Shown piece by piece: positions 1,465-11,399 of a DNA stretch of 11,399 nt (positions are counted from its first letter, which is position 1; each line of letters begins with the position of its first letter). The DNA comes from a virus. Taxonomy: Duplodnaviria > Heunggongvirae > Uroviricota > Caudoviricetes. The notes under the pieces were generated by a model. The model made no database searches. It saw only the letters and a program-made list of their open reading frames with translations, and was not told the origin of the DNA. The stretch lies in the IMG/VR virus record IMGVR_UViG_2645727593_000020; one strand, 5' to 3'. A program made the position numbers and the translations under genes.

Positions 1465-1473
1465 TTGGGAGAA
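1448..1473. repeat. Left recombination site of the invertible segment (gix/hix-like 12-2-12 site), hybrid in composition
   Basis: TTCTTCTTTCCC-TT-GGTTTGGGAGAA. The right half plus core is an exact inverted copy of the half-site at 3334..3347 (TTCTCCCAAACC-AA) and resembles hix/gix half-sites as recalled (TTnTCnnAAACC). The outer left half (TTCTTCTTTCCC) lacks the AAACC element. Confidence 0.55.
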
Positions 1474-1812
1474 GCGGCTAAAAGGAATGTAGGGACAGGG
1501 GCGAATCAGATACCTGATATGGGTAGCTTCACGCTTTCTGTTTCAGGTACTGGATATCAAAAATTTCCATCAGGTTTTATTCTTCAGTGGGGCTCAATCG
1601 GCGCACCAGGCATTGCACAGGATGTAGTAACCCATTTCCCGATTGCATTTCCAAACAGATGTCTGCGTGTTTTGGTCTCACAAGACTACACACCAGATAG
1701 CGGGGCTGTTGGTTATATTGCCTGTGCAGGTTTTAGTCCCGACCCGGTTAAATTTATATCCAGAGCCAGTACTCCTGGCCTCGGCGCTTCATTTTTAGCG
1801 TTAGGCTGTTAA
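1462..1812 (+). CDS. Tail-fibre C-terminal variable segment (Sv-like), no own start codon; orphaned from any constant N-terminal part in this window
   Basis: The frame is open from 1423 (a stop precedes it at 1420..1422) with no ATG before an internal Met. The translation GLGE...[15 protein letters not shown]... resembles phage fibre C-terminal domains. The frame begins exactly in the recombination-site core encoding GLGE, which the minus-strand Sv' also encodes at the right site. Confidence 0.5.
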
Positions 1813-1833
1813 TTTAGCTATATGGAGTGAAAA

Positions 1834-2274
1834 ATGAATTACATATATTCCGCGACTACAAACTCTTTCTATCCGCTGGAGATGAAAGAGGATTACACTC
1901 AAGCTGACTCATGGCCAGATGATGCTGTTGAAGTTGATGAGCAAGTGTATATTGAGTTTTCCGGATTACCGCCGAAAGGAAAAATCCGTATCGCTGGAGA
2001 AAATAGTTTTCCTGCATGGACTGAAATTCCACCACCAACACATGAGGAACAGATTGCTGCAGCCGAACTTGAAAAGCAGCAACTGATTAATCAGGCCAAC
2101 GATTATATGAACAGTAAACAATGGCCTGGTAAAGCGGCTATTGGTCGTCTGAAAGGTGAGGAACTGGCGCAATATAATTTGTGGCTGGATTATCTGGACG
2201 CACTGGAACTGGTCGATACTTCCGGTGCGCCAGATATTGAATGGCCTACGCCTCCGGCAGTTCAGGCCAGATGA
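1834..2274 (+). CDS. Tail-fibre assembly chaperone (Tfa family), 146 aa
   Basis: GGAG lies 7 nt upstream of the ATG. The C-terminus ...LVDTSGAPDIEWPTPP... matches the conserved Tfa C-terminal motif (xDTSxAPDIxWP) of lambda Tfa / Mu U / E. coli TfaE-type proteins. It lies directly downstream of the fibre variable segment. Confidence 0.8.
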   Translation: MNYIYSATTNSFYPLEMKEDYTQADSWPDDAVEVDEQVYIEFSGLPPKGKIRIAGENSFPAWTEIPPPTHEEQIAAAELEKQQLINQANDYMNSKQWPGKAAIGRLKGEELAQYNLWLDYLDALELVDTSGAPDIEWPTPPAVQAR

Positions 2275-2848
2275 CATCCGGCGCGGTGCTGGTATCTGTT
2301 GCCGTCACCGCGTCAATGTAATCCAGCGCAGCGTTAAGTCGGGCGGTTTCTGCCTGCGTCAGATTCCGTCCGGCCTGCAATTTCAGCTGAATCAGACTAA
2401 TGGAAGCCATTGCATTATCAATCAGTGACTGACGCTGTGCTTCTGCCGCGCCTACTGCGGCGCTATGCTGTGCCACAGTATCTGTTACCCATTTCTCACC
2501 ATCCCATTCATCGTATGGCGTTAACGGGGCGATAGTGGTTGTATTTTCAGGATAATCACCCGGAGCTGTGATTTCTTTCGATTCTCCTGTTTCTGTGCTA
2601 TAGATGATTTCACCGCGATGGTCTGGCACATATTCCCATGAGTTAAAATCTGCAGAACGGCAGATTGCATAACCAGCTTTATGTGTAACTGGCGCATCTA
2701 AACAAGAACATGCCGGGATACCGACGCCAACCGCAAGATATTCAGTTGACGTGGAAATATATTCCCGTGTTTCACCATCGTAGTTATAAACGGTAACATC
2801 CCCTGCCTTTGTTGCAATAAGCTCACTATTTAATATTGCTTTATGCAT
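2246..2848 (-). CDS. Tail-fibre assembly chaperone, alternative copy (Tfa'), 200 aa
   Basis: The C-terminus ...TATDTSTAPDVIWPELPEA carries the same Tfa motif. The start ATG overlaps the TGA stop of the upstream Sv' (TGATG on the minus strand at 2846..2850). The 3' end overlaps the plus-strand tfa convergently by 29 nt. Confidence 0.8.
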   Translation of the reverse strand: MHKAILNSELIATKAGDVTVYNYDGETREYISTSTEYLAVGVGIPACSCLDAPVTHKAGYAICRSADFNSWEYVPDHRGEIIYSTETGESKEITAPGDYPENTTTIAPLTPYDEWDGEKWVTDTVAQHSAAVGAAEAQRQSLIDNAMASISLIQLKLQAGRNLTQAETARLNAALDYIDAVTATDTSTAPDVIWPELPEA

Positions 2849-3345
2849 CAGGCTGACCTCACGATATAGTTAAATGCAATATTACGCGGACGCGTTTCTG
2901 AGGCTGCGGCACCTAAACCAGCCACTGATTGTTTATATGTTTTAAAGGTTCCATAATCCGGTGCTGGTAATCCGGCATCGTTTGTGTTTCCTCTTTTGAT
3001 AATGTCAGTGCCACTATTTACCCAGCTTTCATCAAAATAGAAATTAATCGTTGCATCAGTCACAATCGTGGATCTTGACGGTAATCCATGAGCATGATCC
3101 TCCGTTGCATACCCCTGAATACTTAAAATAGAGCGACCTGTATCAATCCCCCGTCCGTCATCCCAGCCACGAATAAACTCACCACGTAAATCAGGCAATT
3201 TATTTGCCGGATAAGCCTTTGCCAGTTCCGGGTATTCTTCAGCAGAAAAAGCTGCACCATTGCATTTCAGCCAGCCTGTTGGCGGTGTGGCTGAAGGCCA
3301 CGGAACAGGGACGCCAACAGGTAATGCAGAGCCTTCTCCCAAACC
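2848..3345 (-). CDS. Tail-fibre C-terminal variable segment, alternative copy (Sv')
   Basis: The translation ...VGLGEGSALPVGVPVPWPS...YPELAKAYPANKLPDLRGEFIRGWDDGRGID... is typical of Mu S / P1 S-type fibre C-terminal domains. The ORF-track N-terminus (3346..3444) runs through the recombination site into the invertase start region and is not counted as fibre. The real coding part begins at the crossover (GLGE at 3334..3345). Confidence 0.6.
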   Translation of the reverse strand, partial: GLGEGSALPVGVPVPWPSATPPTGWLKCNGAAFSAEEYPELAKAYPANKLPDLRGEFIRGWDDGRGIDTGRSILSIQGYATEDHAHGLPSRSTIVTDATINFYFDESWVNSGTDIIKRGNTNDAGLPAPDYGTFKTYKQSVAGLGAAASETRPRNIAFNYIVRSA

Positions 3346-3359
3346 AACGTTTAAGAAAA
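3334..3359. repeat. Right recombination site of the invertible segment (gix/hix-like)
   Basis: TTCTCCCAAACC-AA-CGTTTAAGAAAA: two imperfectly inverted 12-bp half-sites around a 2-bp core. It shares 14 bp (TTGGTTTGGGAGAA on the opposite strand) in inverted orientation with 1460..1473. It sits about 55 bp upstream of the invertase start. Confidence 0.6.
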
Positions 3360-3413
3360 TGTAGTTTTCCCCCCTAGCTGGCATCATTTGGGCTTTTGCA
3401 TGAGGGAAAACAA

Positions 3414-3992
3414 ATGCAGGTTGGCTATGTGCGCGTATCAACAAATGAACAAAATACCGCGCTACAGCGTGACGCGCTGGAACGGTCGGGATGTGAGCTA
3501 ATTTTCGAGGATAAAATCAGCGGTAAATCGACAAACAGGCCAAGGTTAAATCGCGCACTCAGGCAACTTAATGCCGGTGATACTCTCGTTGTCTGGAAGC
3601 TCGACAGGCTCGGGCGTAGCATGCGCCATCTTGTCTCTATGACTGAAGAGCTTCGCCAGCGAGGGGTTAATTTCAGAAGCCTGACCGACAGTATTGATAC
3701 CTCAACCCCGATGGGGCGATTTTTCTTTCACATCATGGGCGCTCTTGCAGAAATGGAACGCGAGTTAATCGTCGAACGAACCCGCGCCGGGCTGGATGCA
3801 GCCCGGGCACAAGGCAGGATCGGAGGTCGTAGGCCGAAGCTGACGCCTGATGAATGGGCTCAGGCTGGCCGGTTGATTGCGGCCGGAGAATCCCGACAGC
3901 GTGTTGCACTGATTTTTGATGTGGGCATATCGACGCTGTATAAAAAATTTCCGGCGACAAATCCCGTTGTGTCAGCCACCGGCGAACCCTGA
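3414..3992 (+). CDS. Serine-recombinase DNA invertase (Hin/Gin/Cin/Pin family), 192 aa
   Basis: From ATG 3414 (GAGGG 6-7 nt upstream): MQVGYVRVSTNEQNTALQRDAL...GDTLVVWKLDRLGRSMRHL...RSLTDSIDT...MGRFFFHIMGALAEMERELIVERTRAGL...GRIGGRRPKLT...STLYKK. It has the active-site Ser near position 10, the resolvase catalytic core and a C-terminal helix-turn-helix, colinear with Gin/Hin. The ORF-track start at 3396 is 6 codons longer and less likely. Confidence 0.9.
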   Translation: MQVGYVRVSTNEQNTALQRDALERSGCELIFEDKISGKSTNRPRLNRALRQLNAGDTLVVWKLDRLGRSMRHLVSMTEELRQRGVNFRSLTDSIDTSTPMGRFFFHIMGALAEMERELIVERTRAGLDAARAQGRIGGRRPKLTPDEWAQAGRLIAAGESRQRVALIFDVGISTLYKKFPATNPVVSATGEP

Positions 3993-3994
3993 CA
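3970..3994 (+). promoter_or_regulatory. Perfect 6-bp dyad TGTCAG-N13-CTGACA straddling the invertase stop; candidate activator site for an FI late promoter
   Basis: Seen in sequence. The dyad centre (about 3982) lies roughly 50 bp upstream of a possible -10-like CAATAT (4022..4027) ahead of FI. The spacing does not match the TGT-N12-ACA Ogr-site consensus as recalled, so this is tentative. Confidence 0.2.
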
Positions 3995-4056
3995 AATAGC
4001 CGCATACAGGCGTAAACCAGACAATATCACTCACCTCAACTAACGGAGTTAAACGG

Positions 4057-5244
4057 ATGAGTGATTATCATCACGGTGTCGAGGTCGTCGAAATTAACGA
4101 CGGCACCCGCACAATCTCGACGGTATCAACGGCGGTCGTTGGCATGGTCTGCACAGCCAGTGATGCTGACGCCGGGGCTTTCCCTCTCAATGAGCCGGTG
4201 CTGATTACCAACCCACAAAGCGCCATCGCAAAAGCCGGTACTAAAGGTACCCTGGCAAAATCCTTACAGCTCATCGCTAACCAGTCAAAACCGGTTGTCG
4301 TTGTTGTGCGTGTCGCGGAGGGTACCGGCGACGGCGAAGAGGCACAGGCGCAAACCATTTCTAACATCATCGGCACCACGAATGAGAATGGCAAATATAC
4401 CGGGATGAAAGCGCTGTTAACGGCGAAAGCGGTCACCGGCGTGAAGCCACGTATTCTCGGTGTGCCGGGGCTCGATACTCAGGAGGTGGCGACCGCGCTT
4501 GTCTCCGTGGCTCAGAAGCTGCGCGCTTTCGCCTATGTCAGCGCGTGGGGCTGTAAAACCATTGCTGACGTTATCGCCTACCGCGAAAACTTCAGCGCCC
4601 GTGAGCTCATGATTATCTGGCCTGACTTCCTCGGGTGGGATACCACGGCCAACGCGACCACAACCAGTTATGCAACAGCGATCGCGTTGGGACTGCGCGC
4701 AAAAATCGACAATGATACAGGCTGGCATAAAACCCTGTCAAACGTCGGCATCAATGGCGTCACCGGTATCAGTGCGTCGGTCTTCTGGGATTTGCAGGAA
4801 TCTGGCACTGATGCCGACCTGCTGAATGAGGCCGGTGTTACGACGCTGATTCGTGCCGATGGTTTCCGCTTCTGGGGTAACCGTAATTGCTCCGATGACC
4901 CGCTGTTTCAGTTTGAGAACTACACCCGCACCGCACAGGTCATAGCCGACACAATAGCCGAGGGGCATATGTGGGCGAACGATAAGCCCATCACCGCGAC
5001 GTTGATTCGCGACATTATCGACGGCATCAACGCGAAATTCCGCGAGCTGAAAACCGGCGGTTACATCATCGATGCGACGTGCTGGTTTGACGAAGAGGCC
5101 AACAGTAAAGAAACCCTGAAAGCCGGGAAACTGTTTATCGATTATGACTATACGCCGGTGCCGCCACTCGAACACCTGACCTTACGCCAGCGCATTACTG
5201 ATAAATATCTGGCGAATCTTATCTCGTCCGTCAACAGCAAATAA
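4057..5244 (+). CDS. FI: Contractile tail sheath protein (P2 gpFI homolog), 395 aa
   Basis: The N-terminus MSDYHHGVEVVEINDGTRTISTVSTAVVGMVCTASDAD... and the rest are colinear with P2 gpFI as recalled (about 396 aa). GGAG lies 8 nt upstream of the ATG. Confidence 0.95.
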   Translation: MSDYHHGVEVVEINDGTRTISTVSTAVVGMVCTASDADAGAFPLNEPVLITNPQSAIAKAGTKGTLAKSLQLIANQSKPVVVVVRVAEGTGDGEEAQAQTISNIIGTTNENGKYTGMKALLTAKAVTGVKPRILGVPGLDTQEVATALVSVAQKLRAFAYVSAWGCKTIADVIAYRENFSARELMIIWPDFLGWDTTANATTTSYATAIALGLRAKIDNDTGWHKTLSNVGINGVTGISASVFWDLQESGTDADLLNEAGVTTLIRADGFRFWGNRNCSDDPLFQFENYTRTAQVIADTIAEGHMWANDKPITATLIRDIIDGINAKFRELKTGGYIIDATCWFDEEANSKETLKAGKLFIDYDYTPVPPLEHLTLRQRITDKYLANLISSVNSK

Positions 5245-5256
5245 GGAGCCTGACAA

Positions 5257-5775
5257 ATGGCATTACCGCGCAAGCTCAAACTCATGAACCTGTTTATCGA
5301 TGGGGTGAGTTATCTCGGCGTCGTGCAGTCCGTCACGCTGCCGAAATTAACCCGCAAGCTCGAGAACTATCGCGGCGGCGGGATGAATGGTTCGGCACCG
5401 GTCGACCTCGGCCTCGATGACGATGCGCTGTCGGCTGAAATCTCTCTCGGCGGCTTCCCCGATGACGCTATCTGGTCGTTATACGCTGCCACCGGCGCGG
5501 CCTCCGTACCGCTACGTTTTGCCGGGTCTTACCAGCGTGATGACACCGGCGAGACCGTGCCGGTTGAGGTTGTTCTCCGTGGCCGTCAGAAAGAAATCGA
5601 CCTCGGTGAAGCCAAACAGGGCGAAGACACCGAGTCGAAAATCGCTCTCGCGTGTACCTATTTCAAGCTGACGATGAATGGCTCGGAACTGGTGGAAATC
5701 GACACCGTGAACCTCATCGAAAAAGTGAACGGCACCGACATGCTCGAGGCGCACCGACAAAATATCGGCCTGTAA
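5257..5775 (+). CDS. FII: Tail tube protein (P2 gpFII homolog), 172 aa
   Basis: MALPRKLKLMNLFIDGVSYLGVVQSVTLPKLTRKLENYRGGGMNG... matches the P2 tube protein in sequence and length. AGGAG lies upstream; it sits directly downstream of FI. Confidence 0.95.
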   Translation: MALPRKLKLMNLFIDGVSYLGVVQSVTLPKLTRKLENYRGGGMNGSAPVDLGLDDDALSAEISLGGFPDDAIWSLYAATGAASVPLRFAGSYQRDDTGETVPVEVVLRGRQKEIDLGEAKQGEDTESKIALACTYFKLTMNGSELVEIDTVNLIEKVNGTDMLEAHRQNIGL

Positions 5776-5778
5776 TTT

Positions 5779-5808
5779 ATGCCCCGGTCAGCATGGCTGG
5801 CCGGGCAT
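5779..5808 (+). other. GC-rich stem-loop in the FII-E intergenic region (possible partial terminator or RNA-stability element)
   Basis: ATGCCCCGGTCAGC-ATG-GCTGGCCGGGCAT forms a stem of about 13 bp with one bulge and one mismatch. No U tract follows on the plus strand, so it is not a classic intrinsic terminator. Confidence 0.35.
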
Positions 5809-5837
5809 CCTGAAACCAGAATTTAACGAGAAATATC

Positions 5838-6110
5838 ATGGATAAAACTAACGAAAATATCGTCACTCTGATTAAACCCATTAAGCGCGGTGAGCAGGTT
5901 ATTACCGACGTCACCCTGTTAAAACCGTGTGCCGGAACCCTTCGCGGTGTCAGCCTGGCATCAGTCGCAAACTCTGACGTCGATGCGCTGATTAAAGTGC
6001 TGCCGCGCATGACCATGCCGTCGCTGACCGAGCAGGAAGCCGCCGCACTGGAGCTGCCCGACCTGCTGTCGTTTGCCGGTAAGGTGGTCGGTTTTTTGTC
6101 ACCGAGTTAG
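5838..6110 (+). CDS. E: Tail assembly chaperone (P2 gpE homolog), 90 aa
   Basis: Conserved position between the tube and tape-measure genes, small size, and a C-terminus ending on a slippery run (…VVGFLSPS*). Confidence 0.85.
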   Translation: MDKTNENIVTLIKPIKRGEQVITDVTLLKPCAGTLRGVSLASVANSDVDALIKVLPRMTMPSLTEQEAAALELPDLLSFAGKVVGFLSPS

Positions 6111-6271
6111 GCGGCGTAATCTTCCCGCAAAAACTCACGGTCGATGACCTGATGGCTGACATAGCGGTAATTTTCCACTGGTCGCCATCAGACCTGTATC
6201 CCATGAGCCTGACCGAACTCGTCAACTGGCGCGAAAAAGCGCTACAGCGAAGCGGAAACACGAATGAGTAA
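5838..6271 (+). CDS. E+E': Tail assembly chaperone frameshift product (P2 gpE+E' homolog), about 144 aa, made by a programmed -1 frameshift
   Basis: After a -1 slip at T_TTT_TTG (6092..6098) the frame stays open to the TAA at 6269..6271, adding VTELGGVIFPQKLTVDDLMADIAVIFHWSPSDLYPMSLTELVNWREKALQRSGNTNE. The end overlaps the T start (ATG 6264). This is the conserved myovirus/siphovirus chaperone arrangement (lambda G/GT, P2 E/E+E'). Confidence 0.75.
6092..6098 (+). promoter_or_regulatory. -1 programmed ribosomal frameshift slippery heptamer T_TTT_TTG
   Basis: X_XXY_YYZ heptamer in the E zero frame, 4 codons before the E stop. The -1 frame downstream is open for 57 codons. Confidence 0.7.
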
Positions 6272-8693
6272 TAACCTCAAACTCGAAGTGCTGCTGAAAG
6301 CTGTCGACCAGGCGACCCGACCCTTTAAAGCGATCCAGACGGCGAGCAAATCGCTGTCTGGCGATATCCGCACGACTCAGCAATCCCTGCGTGATTTGAA
6401 TGGTCAGGCATCGAAAATCGACGGTTTTCGCAAAACCAGCGCACAACTGGCGGTAACCGGACAGGCACTGGAAAAGGCAAAACAGGAAGCCGCCGAGCTG
6501 GCGGTGCAGTTTAAAAACACGGAACGGCCAACGGCGGCACAGGCCAGAGTGCTGGAATCAGCAAAGCGTTCGGCTGAAGGGTTACAGGCAAAATATAACA
6601 GCCTCACCCAATCGGTGAAGCGGCAACAGACCGAGCTCGGCAAAGCGGGGATTAATACGCGCAATCTGTCGAATGATGAAAGCCGCCTGAAAAACTCTAT
6701 CAATGAAACTACCGCACAACTTAACCGCCAGCGTGAAGCACTGGCGCGGGTCAGCGCGCAACAGGCAAAACTCAGCGCAGTACAAAAACGCTATCAGGCA
6801 GGAAAGGCACTGGCTGGAAATGCGGCATCGATGGGCGCTGCCGGGATAGGCATGGCAACGACCGGAGCGCTTGCCGGTGTTGCACTGATGAAGCCCGGTT
6901 ATGATTTTGCTCAGAAAAACTCTGAGTTACAGGCCGTTCTCGGTGTCGGTAAAGACTCAGCTGATATGGTGGCGCTCCGCAAACAGGCGCGCCAGCTCGG
7001 TGACAACACCGCCGCGTCGGCTGATGATGCTGCCGGTGCTCAGATTATTATTGCAAAGGCTGGCGGCGATGCTGCGGCTATTCAGGCCGCTACCCCCGTA
7101 ACACTCGATATGGCGCTCGCAAACCGTCGAACGATGGAAGAGAACGCCGGGTTATTGATGGGGATGCGCTCTGCCTTCCAGCTTTCAAACGATAAGGTCG
7201 CCCATATCGGTGATGTTCTGTCGATGACGATGAACAAAACCGCCGCCGACTTTGACGGCCTGAGTGATGCGCTGACTTATGCCGCGCCGGTGGCGAAAAA
7301 TGCCGGGGTCAGCATCGAAGAAACAGCCGCAATGGTCGGCGCACTGCATGACGCCAAAATTACGGGATCGATGGCGGGTACGGGGAGCCGTGCCGTATTA
7401 AGTCGCCTGCAGGCTCCAACGGGCAAAGCGTATGACGCCATTAAAGAGCTCGGCGTCAAAACGGCTGATGGTAAGGGGAACACACGTCCAATATTTACCA
7501 TCCTGAAAGAAATGCAGCGGAGTTTTGATAAAAACAACCTCGGCACCGGCCAGCGTGCCGAATATATGAAAACCATTTTCGGTGAAGAGGCCAGCTCGTC
7601 GGCTGCGGTACTCATGACCGCTGCCTCGAGCGGGAAATTAGACCAGCTTACCGCTTCCCTTAAAGCATCGGATGGCAAAACCGCTGAGCTGGTGAAGGTC
7701 ATGCAGGATAACCTCGGCGGCGATTTTAAAGAGTTTCAGTCTGCGTATGAAGCGGTAGGAACCGACCTGTTTGACCAGCAAGAGTCATCATTAAGAAAGC
7801 TGGTACAAACGACGACAGGGTATGTATTGAGGCTCGATAGCTGGATCCAAAAGAACAAATCTCTTGCCACCACGCTGGGTGTCATTACGGCGGCAGCTGT
7901 CGGTATTGTGGGGATGATTGGTGCCATTGGCCTTGTATCGTGGCCGGTAATTACTGGCATTAACGCCATCATTTCGGCGGCTGGTGCGCTTGGTGCGGTC
8001 TTTACGACAATCAGTGGCGGGGTCATTGCGGCTATTGGTGCTATTACGTGGCCTGTCGTGGCGGTAGCGGCGGCTGTTGTCGCTGGCGCGCTGCTTATCC
8101 GTAAATACTGGGAGCCTGTCAGCGCATTCTTTGCCGGTGTGGTCGAGGGGCTCATGAGTGCCTTTGCGCCGGTCGGGGAAATGTTCGCCCCGCTGGCACC
8201 CATTTTCGACGGTCTCGGCGAAAAACTTCGCGGCGTCTGGCAGTGGTTTAAAGACCTGATAGCGCCGGTGAAAGCGACTCAGGACACGCTCAACAGTTGT
8301 CGTGATGTTGGGGTTATGTTCGGTCAGACGCTGGCCGATGCACTGCTGATGCCGCTTAACGCCTTTAACAAGCTGCGAAGCGGGATTGACTGGGTGCTCG
8401 AAAAACTCGGCATTATCAACAAAGAATCCAGCTCACTTGACCAGACTGCGGCGAAAGCCAATGCAGCGACGCAGAACGGTTACAGCCCGGCAATCAGCGC
8501 ATACAACAGCTATCAGCCGGTCACGGCACCCGCCGGTAAAACCTACATCGACCAGAGTCGGCCAATCTATCAAATCACCGTGCCGGGCAATGGTATGCCG
8601 GGAGATCGGTTGGGTAATGATTTGCAGGATGCATTAGAAAAGTATGAGCGCGAGAAGCGCGCCAAAGCCCGCGCAAGCATGATGCATGACTAA
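6264..8693 (+). CDS. T: Tail tape measure protein (P2 gpT homolog), 809 aa
   Basis: Size and position match P2 gpT. The N-terminal half is helical and coiled-coil-like, followed by a Gly/Ala-rich hydrophobic stretch (about aa 530-610). The start overlaps the E+E' stop. Confidence 0.9.
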   Translation: MSNNLKLEVLLKAVDQATRPFKAIQTASKSLSGDIRTTQQSLRDLNGQASKIDGFRKTSAQLAVTGQALEKAKQEAAELAVQFKNTERPTAAQARVLESAKRSAEGLQAKYNSLTQSVKRQQTELGKAGINTRNLSNDESRLKNSINETTAQLNRQREALARVSAQQAKLSAVQKRYQAGKALAGNAASMGAAGIGMATTGALAGVALMKPGYDFAQKNSELQAVLGVGKDSADMVALRKQARQLGDNTAASADDAAGAQIIIAKAGGDAAAIQAATPVTLDMALANRRTMEENAGLLMGMRSAFQLSNDKVAHIGDVLSMTMNKTAADFDGLSDALTYAAPVAKNAGVSIEETAAMVGALHDAKITGSMAGTGSRAVLSRLQAPTGKAYDAIKELGVKTADGKGNTRPIFTILKEMQRSFDKNNLGTGQRAEYMKTIFGEEASSSAAVLMTAASSGKLDQLTASLKASDGKTAELVKVMQDNLGGDFKEFQSAYEAVGTDLFDQQESSLRKLVQTTTGYVLRLDSWIQKNKSLATTLGVITAAAVGIVGMIGAIGLVSWPVITGINAIISAAGALGAVFTTISGGVIAAIGAITWPVVAVAAAVVAGALLIRKYWEPVSAFFAGVVEGLMSAFAPVGEMFAPLAPIFDGLGEKLRGVWQWFKDLIAPVKATQDTLNSCRDVGVMFGQTLADALLMPLNAFNKLRSGIDWVLEKLGIINKESSSLDQTAAKANAATQNGYSPAISAYNSYQPVTAPAGKTYIDQSRPIYQITVPGNGMPGDRLGNDLQDALEKYEREKRAKARASMMHD

Positions 8694-8704
8694 GGAGACT
8701 GATT

Positions 8705-9169
8705 ATGATGCTGGCATTAGGTATGTTTGTTTTTATGCGTCAGACGCTGCCCTACCAGAGCATGCAGCGCAGCGCGGATTATAGCTGGGCGTCAAACTCT
8801 CGCATCGGGAAGCGTGACGCTTTTCAGTATCTCGGCGAGGGGGAAGATAAAATCACCCTGAGCGGTGACCTGTATCCTGAGCTGACCGGCGGTAAGCTCA
8901 CGATGCTGGCGCTTTATGCAATGGCTGAACAGGGGCGCGCATGGCCGCTTATCTCTGGCTCAGGCTGGATTTACGGGATGTTTGTTGTCAGTAATGTCTC
9001 GGAGACCGGCACGGTATTTTTTGAGGATGGGACGCCACGAAAAATCAGCTTCACCCTGTCACTGACCCGTGTCGATGAGTCGCTCGCCGCGGTGTATGGC
9101 GATATTGGAAAACAGGCCGAAAGTCTGGTCGGGAAAGCTGGCGATCTGCTGTCGATGGTGGGGGCGTAA
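8705..9169 (+). CDS. U: Tail protein gpU homolog, 154 aa
   Basis: AGGAG lies upstream of the ATG. The translation MMLALGMFVFMRQTLPYQSMQRS...LYPELTGG... resembles the P2 gpU family; position between T and D. Confidence 0.9.
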   Translation: MMLALGMFVFMRQTLPYQSMQRSADYSWASNSRIGKRDAFQYLGEGEDKITLSGDLYPELTGGKLTMLALYAMAEQGRAWPLISGSGWIYGMFVVSNVSETGTVFFEDGTPRKISFTLSLTRVDESLAAVYGDIGKQAESLVGKAGDLLSMVGA

Positions 9170-9171
9170 TC

Positions 9172-10344
9172 ATGCTGGATATTATCACCGGCGCGGGTGC
9201 CACGCTGACGCCCGACTTTATGCTGACACTGGAAAGCAAAGATATCACCGGCAATATCAGTGACCGGCTGATTAACCTCTCGATGACGGACAATCGGGGT
9301 TTTGAGGCCGACCAGCTCTACATCGAGCTCGACGATACTGACGGTCTGGTCGCATTGCCGATTCGCGGTGCGGTGCTGTCGCTGTATCTCGGGTGGAAAG
9401 GTTTCTCTCTGGTCAGCAAGGGGCGATTTACCGTCGATGAGGTAGAGCACCGGGGGGCGCCGGATACGGTAACCATTCGCGCCCGGGGTGCGGATTTTCG
9501 CGGGACGCTTAATTCCCGTCGTGAGGAGTCATGGCATGACACCACGCTCGGCGCAATCGTCAGCTCGATAGCTGAGCGGAACAAGTTAACGGCCAGCGTC
9601 ACTGATTCTCTTGCGGGGATCCAGATTCCGCATATCGACCAGTCTCAGGAATCCGACGCCGTTTTCCTGACTCGCCTCGCAGAACGCAACGGCGGTGCGG
9701 TCTCAGTGAAAGCGGGTAGATTGCTGATGCTCAAAGCGGGAAGCGGTACCACTGCCAGTGGAAAAGCTATTCCTCAAATTACCATCCAGCGCGGTGACGG
9801 TGACCGGCATCAGTTTGCCATTGCCGACCGTGGCGCTTACACCGGCGTAACCGCTAAGTGGCTGCACACTAAAGACCCGAAACCGGCGAAACAAAAGCAG
9901 ACAGTGAAGCTGAAACGTAAGCCCAAAGAGCAACACCTCCGGGCGCTACAGCACCCGAAAGCAAAACCAGTGAGCAGTAAAGTCACGGCCAAAAAGCAAA
10001 AAGAGCAGGAAGCCCGCGAGGGTGAATACATGGCCGGTGAGGCTGACAACGTTTTCGCGCTGACGACCATTTACGCGACAAAGGCGCAAGCGATGCGTGC
10101 AGCTCAGGCGAAGTGGGATAAATTGCAGCGTGGGGTTGCGGAGTTCTCCATTATGTTAGCGACCGGCCGCGAGGATATTTACCCCGAAACGCCGGTCAGG
10201 GTCTCAGGCTTTAAGAGCGTTATAGACGAGCAAGCATGGATAATCAGCAGGGTGACCCATAATCTCGGTGGGAATGGCTTCACAACGGCTGTAGAGCTTG
10301 AGGTGATGCTTTCGGATGTAGAATATGACACCGACGAATCTTGA
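9172..10344 (+). CDS. D: Tail protein gpD homolog (late control D family), 390 aa
   Basis: The start overlaps the U stop (TAATCATG). Size and sequence are consistent with P2 gpD; it is followed by ogr as in P2. Confidence 0.9.
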   Translation: MLDIITGAGATLTPDFMLTLESKDITGNISDRLINLSMTDNRGFEADQLYIELDDTDGLVALPIRGAVLSLYLGWKGFSLVSKGRFTVDEVEHRGAPDTVTIRARGADFRGTLNSRREESWHDTTLGAIVSSIAERNKLTASVTDSLAGIQIPHIDQSQESDAVFLTRLAERNGGAVSVKAGRLLMLKAGSGTTASGKAIPQITIQRGDGDRHQFAIADRGAYTGVTAKWLHTKDPKPAKQKQTVKLKRKPKEQHLRALQHPKAKPVSSKVTAKKQKEQEAREGEYMAGEADNVFALTTIYATKAQAMRAAQAKWDKLQRGVAEFSIMLATGREDIYPETPVRVSGFKSVIDEQAWIISRVTHNLGGNGFTTAVELEVMLSDVEYDTDES

Positions 10345-10420: not shown

Positions 10421-10639
10421 ATGATGCACTGCCCGCTATGTCAGGATGCAGCACACGCACGATCAAGCCGGTACCTGAGCACTGAAACGAAAGAGCGCTA
10501 CCACCAGTGCCAGAACATCAACTGCGGTTGCACTTTCGTCACCCACGAGAGCCTTGCTCGTTTTATCGTGAAGCCAGGAGAAATTGAACCCGCCCCACCC
10601 CACCCGTCTAAATACCAACAACATCAGCTCTGGCTTTAA
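10421..10639 (+). CDS. ogr: Zinc-finger late-gene transcriptional activator Ogr, 72-73 aa
   Basis: MMHCPLCQDAAHARSSRYLSTETKERYHQCQNINCGCTFVTHE...IVKPGE... has the CxxC...CxxxxC zinc-binding pattern of P2 Ogr / P4 Delta. The start is at ATG 10421 or 10424, preceded by AAGGAGAGGGAAG. The 104-aa ORF-track version (from 10325) overlaps the D 3' end and is rejected as the real start. Confidence 0.85.
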   Translation: MMHCPLCQDAAHARSSRYLSTETKERYHQCQNINCGCTFVTHESLARFIVKPGEIEPAPPHPSKYQQHQLWL

Positions 10640-10643
10640 ATCA

Positions 10644-10664
10644 AAGGCCTGCTTTGCAGGCCTT
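10644..10664. terminator. Bidirectional stem-loop terminator shared by ogr (+) and the convergent minus-strand ORF
   Basis: AAGGCCTGC-TTT-GCAGGCCTT is a perfect 9-bp stem with a 3-nt loop. It is followed by CTTGTAT on the plus strand and by a T-rich stretch on the minus strand. It lies between the ogr stop (10639) and the minus-ORF stop (10677..10679). Confidence 0.55.
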
Positions 10665-10676
10665 CTTGTATCAAAC

Positions 10677-11399
10677 TTAGATTGGTAATGAAAAAGCTAT
10701 CGCCTTGCAGATATGTTGCTTTGTTAACGCAGGATGTGTTGAAGCAAAAAGCGATAAAAAGCTTTTAGCTTCAACCGAATCATCATTAAGCGAAATATTA
10801 TCTTTGATGAATGGATGAAGTGCGATTCCAGCGCTCATAGATAACGGCACATAGTTGATGAATATATCTTCTTTTGTGAGACCTAGCTGGTTTGCTTGTG
10901 CTTCAAATGAATTAGCATCTAAATAATCACGTATACGTTCTTTGGCCTCTGGTCGGAGTCTCGATTCTTGACGCGGCAGAGAAAGCATCTTATCAATATC
11001 TCCCCATGAGATAGGAACCTCAAAATAGCCACCACCTTCTTCCTCTGGAGGTGCCGGGAAATTCACATAAAAATAGTTTTTTTGCTGTGTAGGGTCGTTC
11101 ATGGACTGACGATGATAGTTATAAATACTTCTAATACGGTTGGCCTTGTTATGATGCCGAGCATTTCGAATAACAAGCATCATTAATAATTCAGGTTTCA
11201 AATACCAGTCAGGCTCTAATCCATTGCTTTGCATGTTGTCATACAAATTATGAAAAGCATTAAGTTGTGTATTCAGGCCCGATTCTAAATTGCCAATTGC
11301 TTCAGCACGATCAATAGCCAACAAACGCTGTAGTGACCAGTTAGACTCTAATAAAACCCGAAAGGCCTGTGCAAGATCTTCAAAAGAGTGGGAAAGCAT
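10677..11399 (-). CDS. Hypothetical protein, at least 240 aa, AT-rich accessory gene; 5' end may extend beyond the window
   Basis: Long minus-strand ORF running to the window edge in visibly AT-rich DNA, convergent to ogr. Contains an R-x4-H patch (VIRNARHH, aa 78-83) of the type seen in HEPN-like nuclease folds, and an acidic/Gly patch PPEEEGGG. No confident family assignment. Confidence 0.5.
   Translation of the reverse strand: MLSHSFEDLAQAFRVLLESNWSLQRLLAIDRAEAIGNLESGLNTQLNAFHNLYDNMQSNGLEPDWYLKPELLMMLVIRNARHHNKANRIRSIYNYHRQSMNDPTQQKNYFYVNFPAPPEEEGGGYFEVPISWGDIDKMLSLPRQESRLRPEAKERIRDYLDANSFEAQANQLGLTKEDIFINYVPLSMSAGIALHPFIKDNISLNDDSVEAKSFLSLFASTHPALTKQHICKAIAFSLPI

What the first reader, a model, noticed from the sequence alone, without database searches (positions are those of the whole stretch)
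5776..5837. Strong GC-rich hairpin between the tube gene and E
A stem of about 13 bp lies directly after the FII stop with no U tract following. It could be a partial terminator or processing/stability element that sets high sheath and tube expression against low expression of the downstream chaperone, tape measure and U/D genes. Differential stoichiometry is usual for tail modules, but whether this element does it is untested.
Basis: inference. Interest (0 to 1): 0.22.

Follow-up and report, generated by a model that had tools for sequence, protein, structure and literature searches.

The report
Conserved RNA hairpin after tail-tube gene
The hairpin is real and is the counterpart of an element annotated in phage 186 as a leaky transcription stop after the tail-tube gene, so it is an ordinary, already described way of making more sheath and tube than the later tail proteins.

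Summary
Bases 5779-5808 form a 13-bp GC-rich stem (one bulged C, one G.U, loop AUG, about -21 kcal/mol). It starts 3 nt after the FII (tube) stop, lies 30 nt before the E start, and has no U tract.

On energy alone it is only the 4th best 40-nt window on its strand. Conservation is what shows it is real:
- A hairpin sits at this position in 105/108 distinct P2-type sequences, 29/29 Fels-2/SEN8-type, 53/61 Burkholderia-type and 18/41 phiCTX-type, with unrelated stem sequences between clades.
- Base pairs covary.
- Helix mismatches are 58 G.T against 2 A.C, so the structure belongs to the sense RNA.
- The motif is single-copy, and 119 of 120 hits in viral contigs lie just after an FII gene.

The curated phage 186 record annotates the same core (CCGGTCAGC-N3-GCTGGCCGG), at the same gene junction, as "tI; partial terminator of pJ transcript". 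The P2 reference record leaves it unannotated.

Most of these hairpins, including this one, lack a U tract. I therefore favour a leaky attenuator whose main effect here is to protect the 3' end of the FI-FII mRNA. No transcript data were available. It is a new member of a known kind, and interest is low.

The parts
5779..5808 (+). Whole RNA stem-loop: 5' arm 5779-5792, loop 5793-5795, 3' arm 5796-5808. 13 bp, one bulged C, one G.U.
   Evidence: fold, -21.3 kcal/mol, z -3.4; 4th best 40-nt window on the + strand.
5784..5804 (+). Conserved core CCGGTCAGC-AUG-GCTGGCCGG. The same core occurs in P2 (19381-19401) and in phage 186 tI.
   Evidence: single copy in the window and in P2, 0 expected by chance; 119/120 hits in viral contigs lie 11-15 nt after the last FII codon, same strand; near-invariant columns, covarying pairs; 186 tI.
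5809..5837 (+). Single-stranded spacer after the stem (CCUGAAACCAGAAUUUAACGAGAAAUAUC). It has no U tract, is A-rich and G-poor, and ends with the weak E ribosome-binding site (GAGAAA).
4057..5244 (+). FI tail sheath gene, the upstream high-copy product.
   Evidence: Phage_sheath_1, 3.6e-34.
5257..5775 (+). FII tail tube gene. Its stop codon lies 3 nt before the stem. Strong ribosome-binding site TAAGGAG.
   Evidence: Phage_tube, 1.4e-60.
5838..6110 (+). E tail assembly chaperone gene, the first gene downstream of the hairpin. The E+E' -1 frameshift product runs to about 6273.
   Evidence: Phage_TAC_7; E' frame open from the slippery T TTT TTG at 6092-6098.
6264..10344 (+). T (tape measure, 6264-8693), U (8705-9169) and D (9172-10344): low-copy downstream genes that depend on read-through of the hairpin.
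   Evidence: The P2 record gives one transcription start for FI, FII, E, E', T, U, D.

Best explanation
The inverted repeat folds in the sense transcript of the late tail operon into a stable stem-loop immediately 3' of the tube gene. It is the orthologue of phage 186 tI.

Proposed mechanism: it produces a pool of FI-FII-only mRNA whose 3' end is closed by the hairpin, while other transcripts continue into E, E+E', T, U, D and ogr. This version has no U tract. I therefore expect at most weak intrinsic termination. The main effect should be a block to 3'-to-5' exonucleases: after cleavage, or termination further downstream, the distal RNA decays and the sheath/tube segment survives. Together with the strong FII and weak E ribosome-binding sites, this would give the large excess of sheath and tube over chaperone, tape measure, U and D.

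Shown here: the structure, its strand, its conservation and covariation, its linkage to FII, and its homology to 186 tI. Inferred: the effect on RNA 3' ends and half-lives, and the split between termination and stabilisation.
For: - Structure.
- Positional conservation, as the share of hairpins at or below -12 kcal/mol in samples of at most 30 sequences per clade: 93, 86, 40 and 77% in the four clades, against 7, 5, 10 and 22% in dinucleotide shuffles.
- Stem sequences are unrelated between clades.
- Covariation score 0.204 against 0.121 in shuffles (0/500) and 0.02-0.08 in slid controls. Pair 19/34 is U.G 48, C-G 24, U-A 7. Pair 15/38 is C-G 60, G-C 12.
- Helix mismatches are 58 G.T against 2 A.C, so the structure belongs to the + strand RNA.
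- Only 45 of 205 hairpins meet even a lax T-tract rule, and none of 53 in the Burkholderia clade does. The hairpin, not a U tract, is what is conserved.
- The 186 record annotates the same core at the same junction as 'partial terminator of pJ transcript'.
- The P2 record shows one transcription start for FI to D and a terminator only after ogr, so read-through is required.
- Experimental analogue: mutating the GC-rich stem-loop directly after the tube gene hcp4 of Yersinia T6SS4 lowered hcp4 mRNA only and left downstream genes unchanged, so it was read as a 3'-protective loop (PMC12503267).
- U-less stem-loops protect mRNA 3' ends in E. coli (PMC6061677).
Against: - No RNA data exist for this element or for any P2-like phage that I could find.
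- The only explicit label on a homologue says terminator, not stabiliser.
- About a fifth of relatives do have T-rich tails (L002, L097, L115, L120, L129, L162). Termination may therefore be the ancestral role.
- 23 of 41 distinct phiCTX-type sequences have no hairpin and a spacer of about 30 nt. The element is dispensable in some lineages.
- The near-invariant core sequence is not explained by a purely structural role.
Confidence: 0.6

Rival explanations
1. It is a true partial intrinsic terminator, as annotated for 186 tI. The hairpin itself, perhaps helped by NusA or NusG and by pausing, releases a fraction of polymerases despite the poor U tract. mRNA protection is secondary.
For: - 186 tI is annotated as 'partial terminator of pJ transcript' and shares the core.
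- In the P2-type clade, the two positions after the stem are T in 56% and 51% of sequences.
- Some relatives have clear T runs.
- The stem starts only 3-11 nt after the stop codon. A terminating ribosome could therefore modulate hairpin formation and make termination partial (inference).
Against: - The window tail is CAUCCUGA. It fails the 5-T-in-8 criterion and was not called by the scan.
- 160 of 205 hairpins across clades fail the criterion, including all 53 Burkholderia-type ones.
- The experimental basis of the 186 annotation could not be inspected, because the primary papers are not held.
Confidence: 0.25
2. It is a translational insulator. The stem-loop stops ribosomes that finish FII from sliding on or re-initiating at E, so E is translated only from its own weak ribosome-binding site. 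mRNA levels are not affected.
For: - The hairpin sits between the FII stop and the E start.
- FII has a strong ribosome-binding site (TAAGGAG) and E a weak one (GAGAAA).
- The structure is on the sense RNA.
Against: - The stem ends 30 nt before the E start and does not occlude its ribosome-binding site.
- Hairpin-less relatives manage with a short spacer.
- The homologue is annotated as acting on transcripts.
- There is no direct evidence for this role.
Confidence: 0.05
3. It is a DNA-level palindrome: a binding site for a dimeric protein, a recombination or module-boundary sequence, or a dispersed repeat such as a REP element.
For: - The 9-bp half-sites are nearly invariant across Enterobacterales P2-type phages whose FII proteins are only 67-98% identical.
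- Mosaic breakpoints occur near the FII/E junction in close relatives.
Against: - Mismatches are 58 G.T against 2 A.C, an asymmetry that has no meaning for duplex DNA.
- Loop length varies from 3 to 8 nt, which changes half-site spacing.
- Other clades keep a hairpin but with a different sequence.
- The motif is single-copy per genome and 119/120 occurrences are FII-linked, so it is not a dispersed repeat.
Confidence: 0.04
4. It is a chance inverted repeat, or a non-functional relic carried along with FII.
For: Similar folding energies occur several times in coding regions of the same window.
Against: Conservation at one position in four clades with different sequences, compensatory changes, and the shuffle and slide controls.
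Confidence: 0.02

Closest known systems
Phage 186 tI, 'partial terminator of pJ transcript' (feature 15906-15932 of NC_001317, between gene I = FII homologue and orf51/H = E homologue)
   Same: - Same gene junction and same strand.
- Same 9-bp stem core CCGGTCAGC/GCTGGCCGG with a 3-nt loop.
- Similar stability (-20 against -21 kcal/mol).
- Same operon logic: sheath and tube, then chaperone, tape measure, U and D.
   Different: In 186 the core is followed by UUAUUACCCCC, part of which extends the stem. In the window the core is followed by GCAUCCUGAAACC, and the outer stem is built from AUGCC/GGCAU instead, so it has even less of a U tract. The loop is ACU in 186 and AUG in the window. The experimental evidence behind the 186 label could not be read.
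Unannotated FII-E hairpin of phage P2 (NC_001895 19381-19401)
   Same: Orthologous position and core, CCGGTCAGCCTGGCTGGCCGG, including the same U.G pair.
   Different: The P2 stem is only 9 bp with tail UUAACCC. The window clade adds 4 outer pairs. The curated P2 record annotates other terminators, and a U-less 'putative transcription attenuator' in the O operon, but nothing at this position.
Intercistronic 3'-protective stem-loops that set operon stoichiometry. The nearest case is the GC-rich stem-loop after the tube gene hcp4 in Yersinia pseudotuberculosis T6SS4. Also the cip-cel operon stem-loops and the U-less stem-loops at 3' ends of Rho-terminated E. coli mRNAs.
   Same: A GC-rich hairpin without a U tract, directly after the gene for the most abundant subunit, which in the hcp4 case is also the tube protein of a contractile machine. 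The expected outcome is more stable upstream mRNA (PMC12503267; PMC10311766; PMC6061677).
   Different: There is no sequence relationship. The function is demonstrated by mutation in those systems and only inferred here.
Canonical Rho-independent terminator
   Same: A GC-rich stem-loop at the end of a coding region on the sense strand.
   Different: It lacks the U tract. It lies inside an operon whose distal genes are essential and have no annotated promoter of their own in P2, so termination cannot be efficient.

Membership tests
186 tI-type FII-E intergenic hairpin of P2-like phages (Peduoviridae) | Located between the tail tube gene and the E chaperone gene, on the coding strand, within the late tail operon | tested here: met
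   Pfam calls for 5257-5775 and 5838-6110. 186 feature table.
186 tI-type FII-E intergenic hairpin of P2-like phages (Peduoviridae) | Sequence homology of the stem to 186 tI | tested here: met
   Both 9-nt arms are identical and only the loop differs.
186 tI-type FII-E intergenic hairpin of P2-like phages (Peduoviridae) | Base pairing maintained by evolution on the sense RNA | tested here: met
   Covariation and controls. G.T against A.C mismatches, 58 to 2.
186 tI-type FII-E intergenic hairpin of P2-like phages (Peduoviridae) | Ends part of the late transcript while allowing read-through | not testable with these tools
   Needs RNA 3'-end mapping. Only the annotation text of 186 and the single-promoter layout of P2 are available.
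Canonical intrinsic (Rho-independent) terminator | Stable GC-rich stem-loop | tested here: met
Canonical intrinsic (Rho-independent) terminator | U-rich tract directly after the stem (at least 5 T in 8 nt, starting 0-2 nt after the stem) | tested here: not met
   Not reported by the scan. Tail is CAUCCUGA with tail score 1.77.
Intercistronic mRNA decay-barrier stem-loop (hcp4, cip-cel, U-less 3'-end stem-loops) | Stable stem-loop without a U tract, immediately downstream of the gene for the abundant product, inside a polycistronic unit | tested here: met
Intercistronic mRNA decay-barrier stem-loop (hcp4, cip-cel, U-less 3'-end stem-loops) | Upstream mRNA segment is more abundant or longer-lived than the downstream segment, and this depends on the stem | not testable with these tools
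   Requires Northern blots, RNA-seq or half-life measurements with stem mutants.
Dispersed extragenic palindromes (REP/BIME-like repeats) | Many copies scattered in intergenic regions of a genome | tested here: not met
   One copy in the window and one in P2. 119/120 occurrences in viral contigs follow an FII gene.
Any curated Rfam RNA family | Match to a covariance model | tested here: not met
   Only two chance-level hits, on the other strand, with E about 5.

The most novel reading that the evidence does not exclude
The hairpin after the tube gene may be a general, U-tract-independent design rule of contractile injection machines (P2-like phages, tailocins, T6SS hcp). In that reading a decay-blocking stem-loop, not termination, fixes the tube-to-assembly-factor ratio. 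The unusually invariant 9-bp core in enterobacterial phages could additionally reflect recognition by a specific factor, or use as a homology anchor for exchanging the sheath/tube and E-T-U-D modules; mosaic breakpoints are seen near the junction.
Probability: 0.15. Interest if true: 0.4.

Novelty: new member of a known kind. Interest (0 to 1): 0.15.

Why it matters
It matters little beyond annotation. The result explains the one sizeable non-coding gap inside the tail operon. It links the gap to the tI element of phage 186. It also shows that the P2 reference record and most P2-like annotations omit a conserved regulatory RNA structure.

The survey adds two modest points. The structure, not a U tract, is what is conserved across Peduoviridae. 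The G.U asymmetry places it on the mRNA. For people engineering tailocins or P2-type tails, keeping or removing this stem should change the sheath/tube to chaperone/tape-measure ratio.

Tried and rejected
- Rfam scan of 5600-6000 at E up to 10: nothing relevant.
- Consensus terminator scan: the site is not called, and a weak promoter-like match at 5810-5839 (9/12) is within chance expectation.
- Literature searches for a described P2 FII-E stem-loop or for transcript maps of P2-like phages or pyocins: none found.
- The P2 FETUD paper is not held.
- Dispersed-repeat idea: rejected.
- DNA-palindrome or protein-site idea: rejected on strand asymmetry and variable loop length.
- Stop-codon read-through stimulator: considered from the sequence and rejected. 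The distance from stop to stem and the downstream frame are not conserved.
- Rho-loading (rut) idea: flanks are G-poor and C-rich in three clades, but the 92 nt after this window's stem are A-rich with C about equal to G. It is not supported here.
- Search for the Ogr-type TGT-N12-ACA site upstream of FI: no exact match, so the operon promoter was not located.
- A hairpin after the capsid gene as a parallel case: P2 has only a 3-nt N-M gap and a weak O-N structure.

Full report
**Context**

The window carries the tail module of a P2-like (Peduoviridae) prophage. Pfam identifies:
- a serine invertase (3396-3992);
- the sheath FI (4057-5244);
- the tube FII (5257-5775);
- the chaperone E (5838-6110);
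- the tape measure T (6264-8693);
- U (8705-9169) and D (9172-10344);
- an Ogr/Delta activator (10421-10639).

The closest FII proteins (98%) are in Kluyvera genomes. Named phages are at most about 76% identical in DNA. Inside the FI-to-D block, the FII-E spacer (62 nt) is the only sizeable gap.

**Observation**

The sequence AUGCCCCGGUCAGC-AUG-GCUGGCCGGGCAU at 5779-5808 folds into a 13-bp stem with one bulged C and one G.U pair. It starts 3 nt after the TAA of FII. MFE is -21.3 kcal/mol for the 37-nt piece, z = -3.4.

The tail is CAUCCUGAAACC. The consensus terminator scan does not call the site, and my tail scoring gives 1.77 and fails the 5-T-in-8 rule.

Stability alone is not exceptional. 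In a 40-nt sliding fold it ranks 4th on the + strand, and coding regions reach similar values. There is no Rfam match.

**Conservation**

I collected relatives by protein homology to FII from viral contigs and from one genome per species. I then examined the 50-60 nt after the FII stop. Counts are distinct sequences with a hairpin of -8 kcal/mol or better within that stretch.

| Clade | With hairpin | Median offset from stop | At or below -12 kcal/mol, observed | At or below -12 kcal/mol, shuffled |
|---|---|---|---|---|
| P2/Enterobacterales | 105/108 | 7 nt | 93% | 7% |
| Fels-2/SEN8-like | 29/29 | 11 nt | 86% | 5% |
| Burkholderia | 53/61 | 6 nt | 77% | 22% |
| phiCTX-like | 18/41 | 7 nt | 40% | 10% |

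The two right-hand columns come from samples of at most 30 sequences per clade. The shuffled figures are from dinucleotide shuffles of the same sequences.

The 23 hairpin-less phiCTX-type sequences have a spacer of only about 30 nt. Stem sequences differ completely between clades:
- CCGGUCAGC in enterobacterial P2-type phages;
- GGCGCGG in SEN8 and Cartapus;
- CCGCCGGC in phiCTX;
- GCCCGCG or CCCGGCCGG in Burkholderia phages.

So structure and position are kept while the sequence turns over.

**Covariation and strand**

I aligned 82 distinct, protein-found P2-type sequences (A2).
- The named structure pairs in 77% of cells, against 70.9% in shuffles (0/500).
- The covariation score is 0.204, against 0.121 in shuffles (0/500) and 0.02-0.08 when partners are slid by 1-3 columns.
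- Informative pairs: 15/38 is C-G 60, G-C 12. Pair 14/39 is C-G 22, A-U 11, G-U 5, G-C 4. Pair 16/37 is C-G 77, U-A 4. Pair 19/34 is U.G 48, C-G 24, U-A 7.
- In ungapped helices the internal mismatches are 58 G.T against 2 A.C. The other strand would read these as C.A, so the structure is selected on the sense RNA and not on duplex DNA or the antisense strand. Most of the G.T cases are one inherited position, but the C.A intermediate is never seen there.
- The outer three pairs of the window's stem (10-12 with 40-42) are specific to its own clade and are not conserved more widely.

**Not a dispersed repeat**

The core pattern occurs once in the window and once in P2, with 0 expected by chance. 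Of these, 119 lie 11-15 nt after the last codon of an FII homologue on the same strand. The exception is inside a coding region of an unrelated high-GC phage.

**What is already known**

The curated phage 186 record annotates 15906-15932 as "terminator tI; partial terminator of pJ transcript". That feature lies between gene I (the FII homologue) and orf51/H (the E homologue). Its sequence is UGACCGGUCAGC-ACU-GCUGGCCGGUUA plus UUACCCCC. It has the same two 9-nt arms as the window element and folds at -20 kcal/mol. The window hairpin is therefore the orthologue of a named element.

The curated P2 record lists a single transcription start for FI, FII, E, E', T, U, D and a terminator only after ogr. 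It annotates other terminators and a U-less "putative transcription attenuator" in the O operon. It leaves its own copy at 19381-19401 unannotated.

I could not read the primary 186 or P2 papers. The experimental basis of "partial terminator" is therefore unknown to me.

**Mechanism**

The distal genes have no annotated promoter of their own in P2. They include essential tail genes, so the element must be leaky.

Two non-exclusive ways of lowering distal mRNA relative to FI-FII mRNA are inefficient intrinsic termination and protection of the upstream segment from 3' exonucleases. The comparative data favour protection, at least for this version:
- Only 45 of 205 hairpins meet a lax T-tract rule. 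None of the 53 Burkholderia-type ones does, and the window does not.
- Flanks are G-poor in all clades, which keeps the stem isolated in single-stranded RNA.
- In the homologous architecture of a T6SS, destroying the GC-rich stem-loop after the tube gene hcp4 lowered hcp4 mRNA only. The authors concluded it is a 3'-protective loop, not a terminator (PMC12503267).
- U-less stem-loops define and protect the 3' ends of many E. coli mRNAs (PMC6061677).
- Stem-loop-directed processing sets subunit stoichiometry in the cip-cel operon (PMC10311766).

Against this stand the terminator label on 186 tI and the minority of relatives with true T runs, such as L097, L162, L115, L120, L129 and L002. Termination may therefore be the ancestral or a parallel role.

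Translation also contributes. FII has TAAGGAG and E only GAGAAA before the start codon. The stem begins so close to the stop codon that a terminating ribosome would cover its 5' arm; that this makes the effect partial is my inference.

**Rivals**

A DNA palindrome or protein site is contradicted by the strand asymmetry, by loops varying from 3 to 8 nt, and by sequence turnover. A translational insulator is possible but unsupported, because the stem ends 30 nt before the E start. Chance is excluded.

**Verdict**

The element is a further member of a known kind, the FII-E partial terminator/protective hairpin of P2-like phages, so interest is low.

Two things remain open: the split between termination and stabilisation, and why the 9-bp core is so invariant in enterobacterial phages. 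Mosaic breakpoints near the junction hint at a second role as a recombination anchor, but this is weak. Examples are L003 and L005 (FII 97%, E 79%, T N-terminal region 94-96%) and L006 and L007 (FII 92-93%, E 98%).

Noticed in passing
window 6075-6098 and 6092-6273: This looks like the P2-type E/E' programmed -1 frameshift site. The slippery T TTT TTG lies at 6092-6098, preceded by a small hairpin that the terminator scan flagged (6075-6092 plus TTTTTTG). The -1 frame stays open to about 6273 and overlaps the T start at 6264, as in P2.
   Followed up: partly
window 1465-3992: A Gin/Cin-type serine invertase (3396-3992) lies next to opposed tail-fibre cassettes: a fibre C-terminus (1465-1812, +) and assembly protein (1834-2274, +) facing a second assembly protein (2246-2848, -) and a collar-domain fibre fragment (2848-3444, -). 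This looks like an invertible host-range segment. The crossover sites were not located.
   Followed up: partly
window 10421-10671: An Ogr/Delta zinc-finger late activator (10421-10639) is followed by a GC-rich hairpin with a T-rich tail (about 10645-10671). This corresponds to the P2 and 186 terminator that ends the tail operon. The consensus scan did not list it.
   Followed up: partly
window 3993-4056: Only 64 nt separate the invertase stop from the FI start, and there is no exact TGT-N12-ACA activator site anywhere upstream of FI. The late promoter of this operon must overlap the end of the invertase gene or use a degenerate site.
   Followed up: partly
L165 (phage P2) 5901-5999: The 99-nt M-L intergenic region of P2 folds into a very stable extended structure (-46.4 kcal/mol) that is not annotated in the reference record.
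   Followed up: no
L003, L005, L002, L004, L087, L006, L007 against the window (FII/E junction): Close relatives show discordant identities on the two sides of the hairpin, for example FII 97% with E 79%, or FII 92% with E 98%. This indicates recombination breakpoints at or near the FII-E spacer.
   Followed up: partly
L222, L218, L226 and other phiCTX-type loci, about 30 nt after FII: A sub-clade of phiCTX-related phages has no hairpin and only a spacer of about 30 nt between the tube and E genes. This is a natural comparison set for testing what the hairpin contributes.
   Followed up: partly
window 10738-10775: A 15-nt inverted repeat (93% complementary, 8-nt spacer; GTTGAAGCAAAAAGC / GCTTTTAGCTTCAAC) lies inside the 3' part of the minus-strand ORF 10677-11399, which has no Pfam match. 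It sits downstream of ogr, where P2 and 186 have attP and integrase. Its significance is unknown.
   Followed up: no
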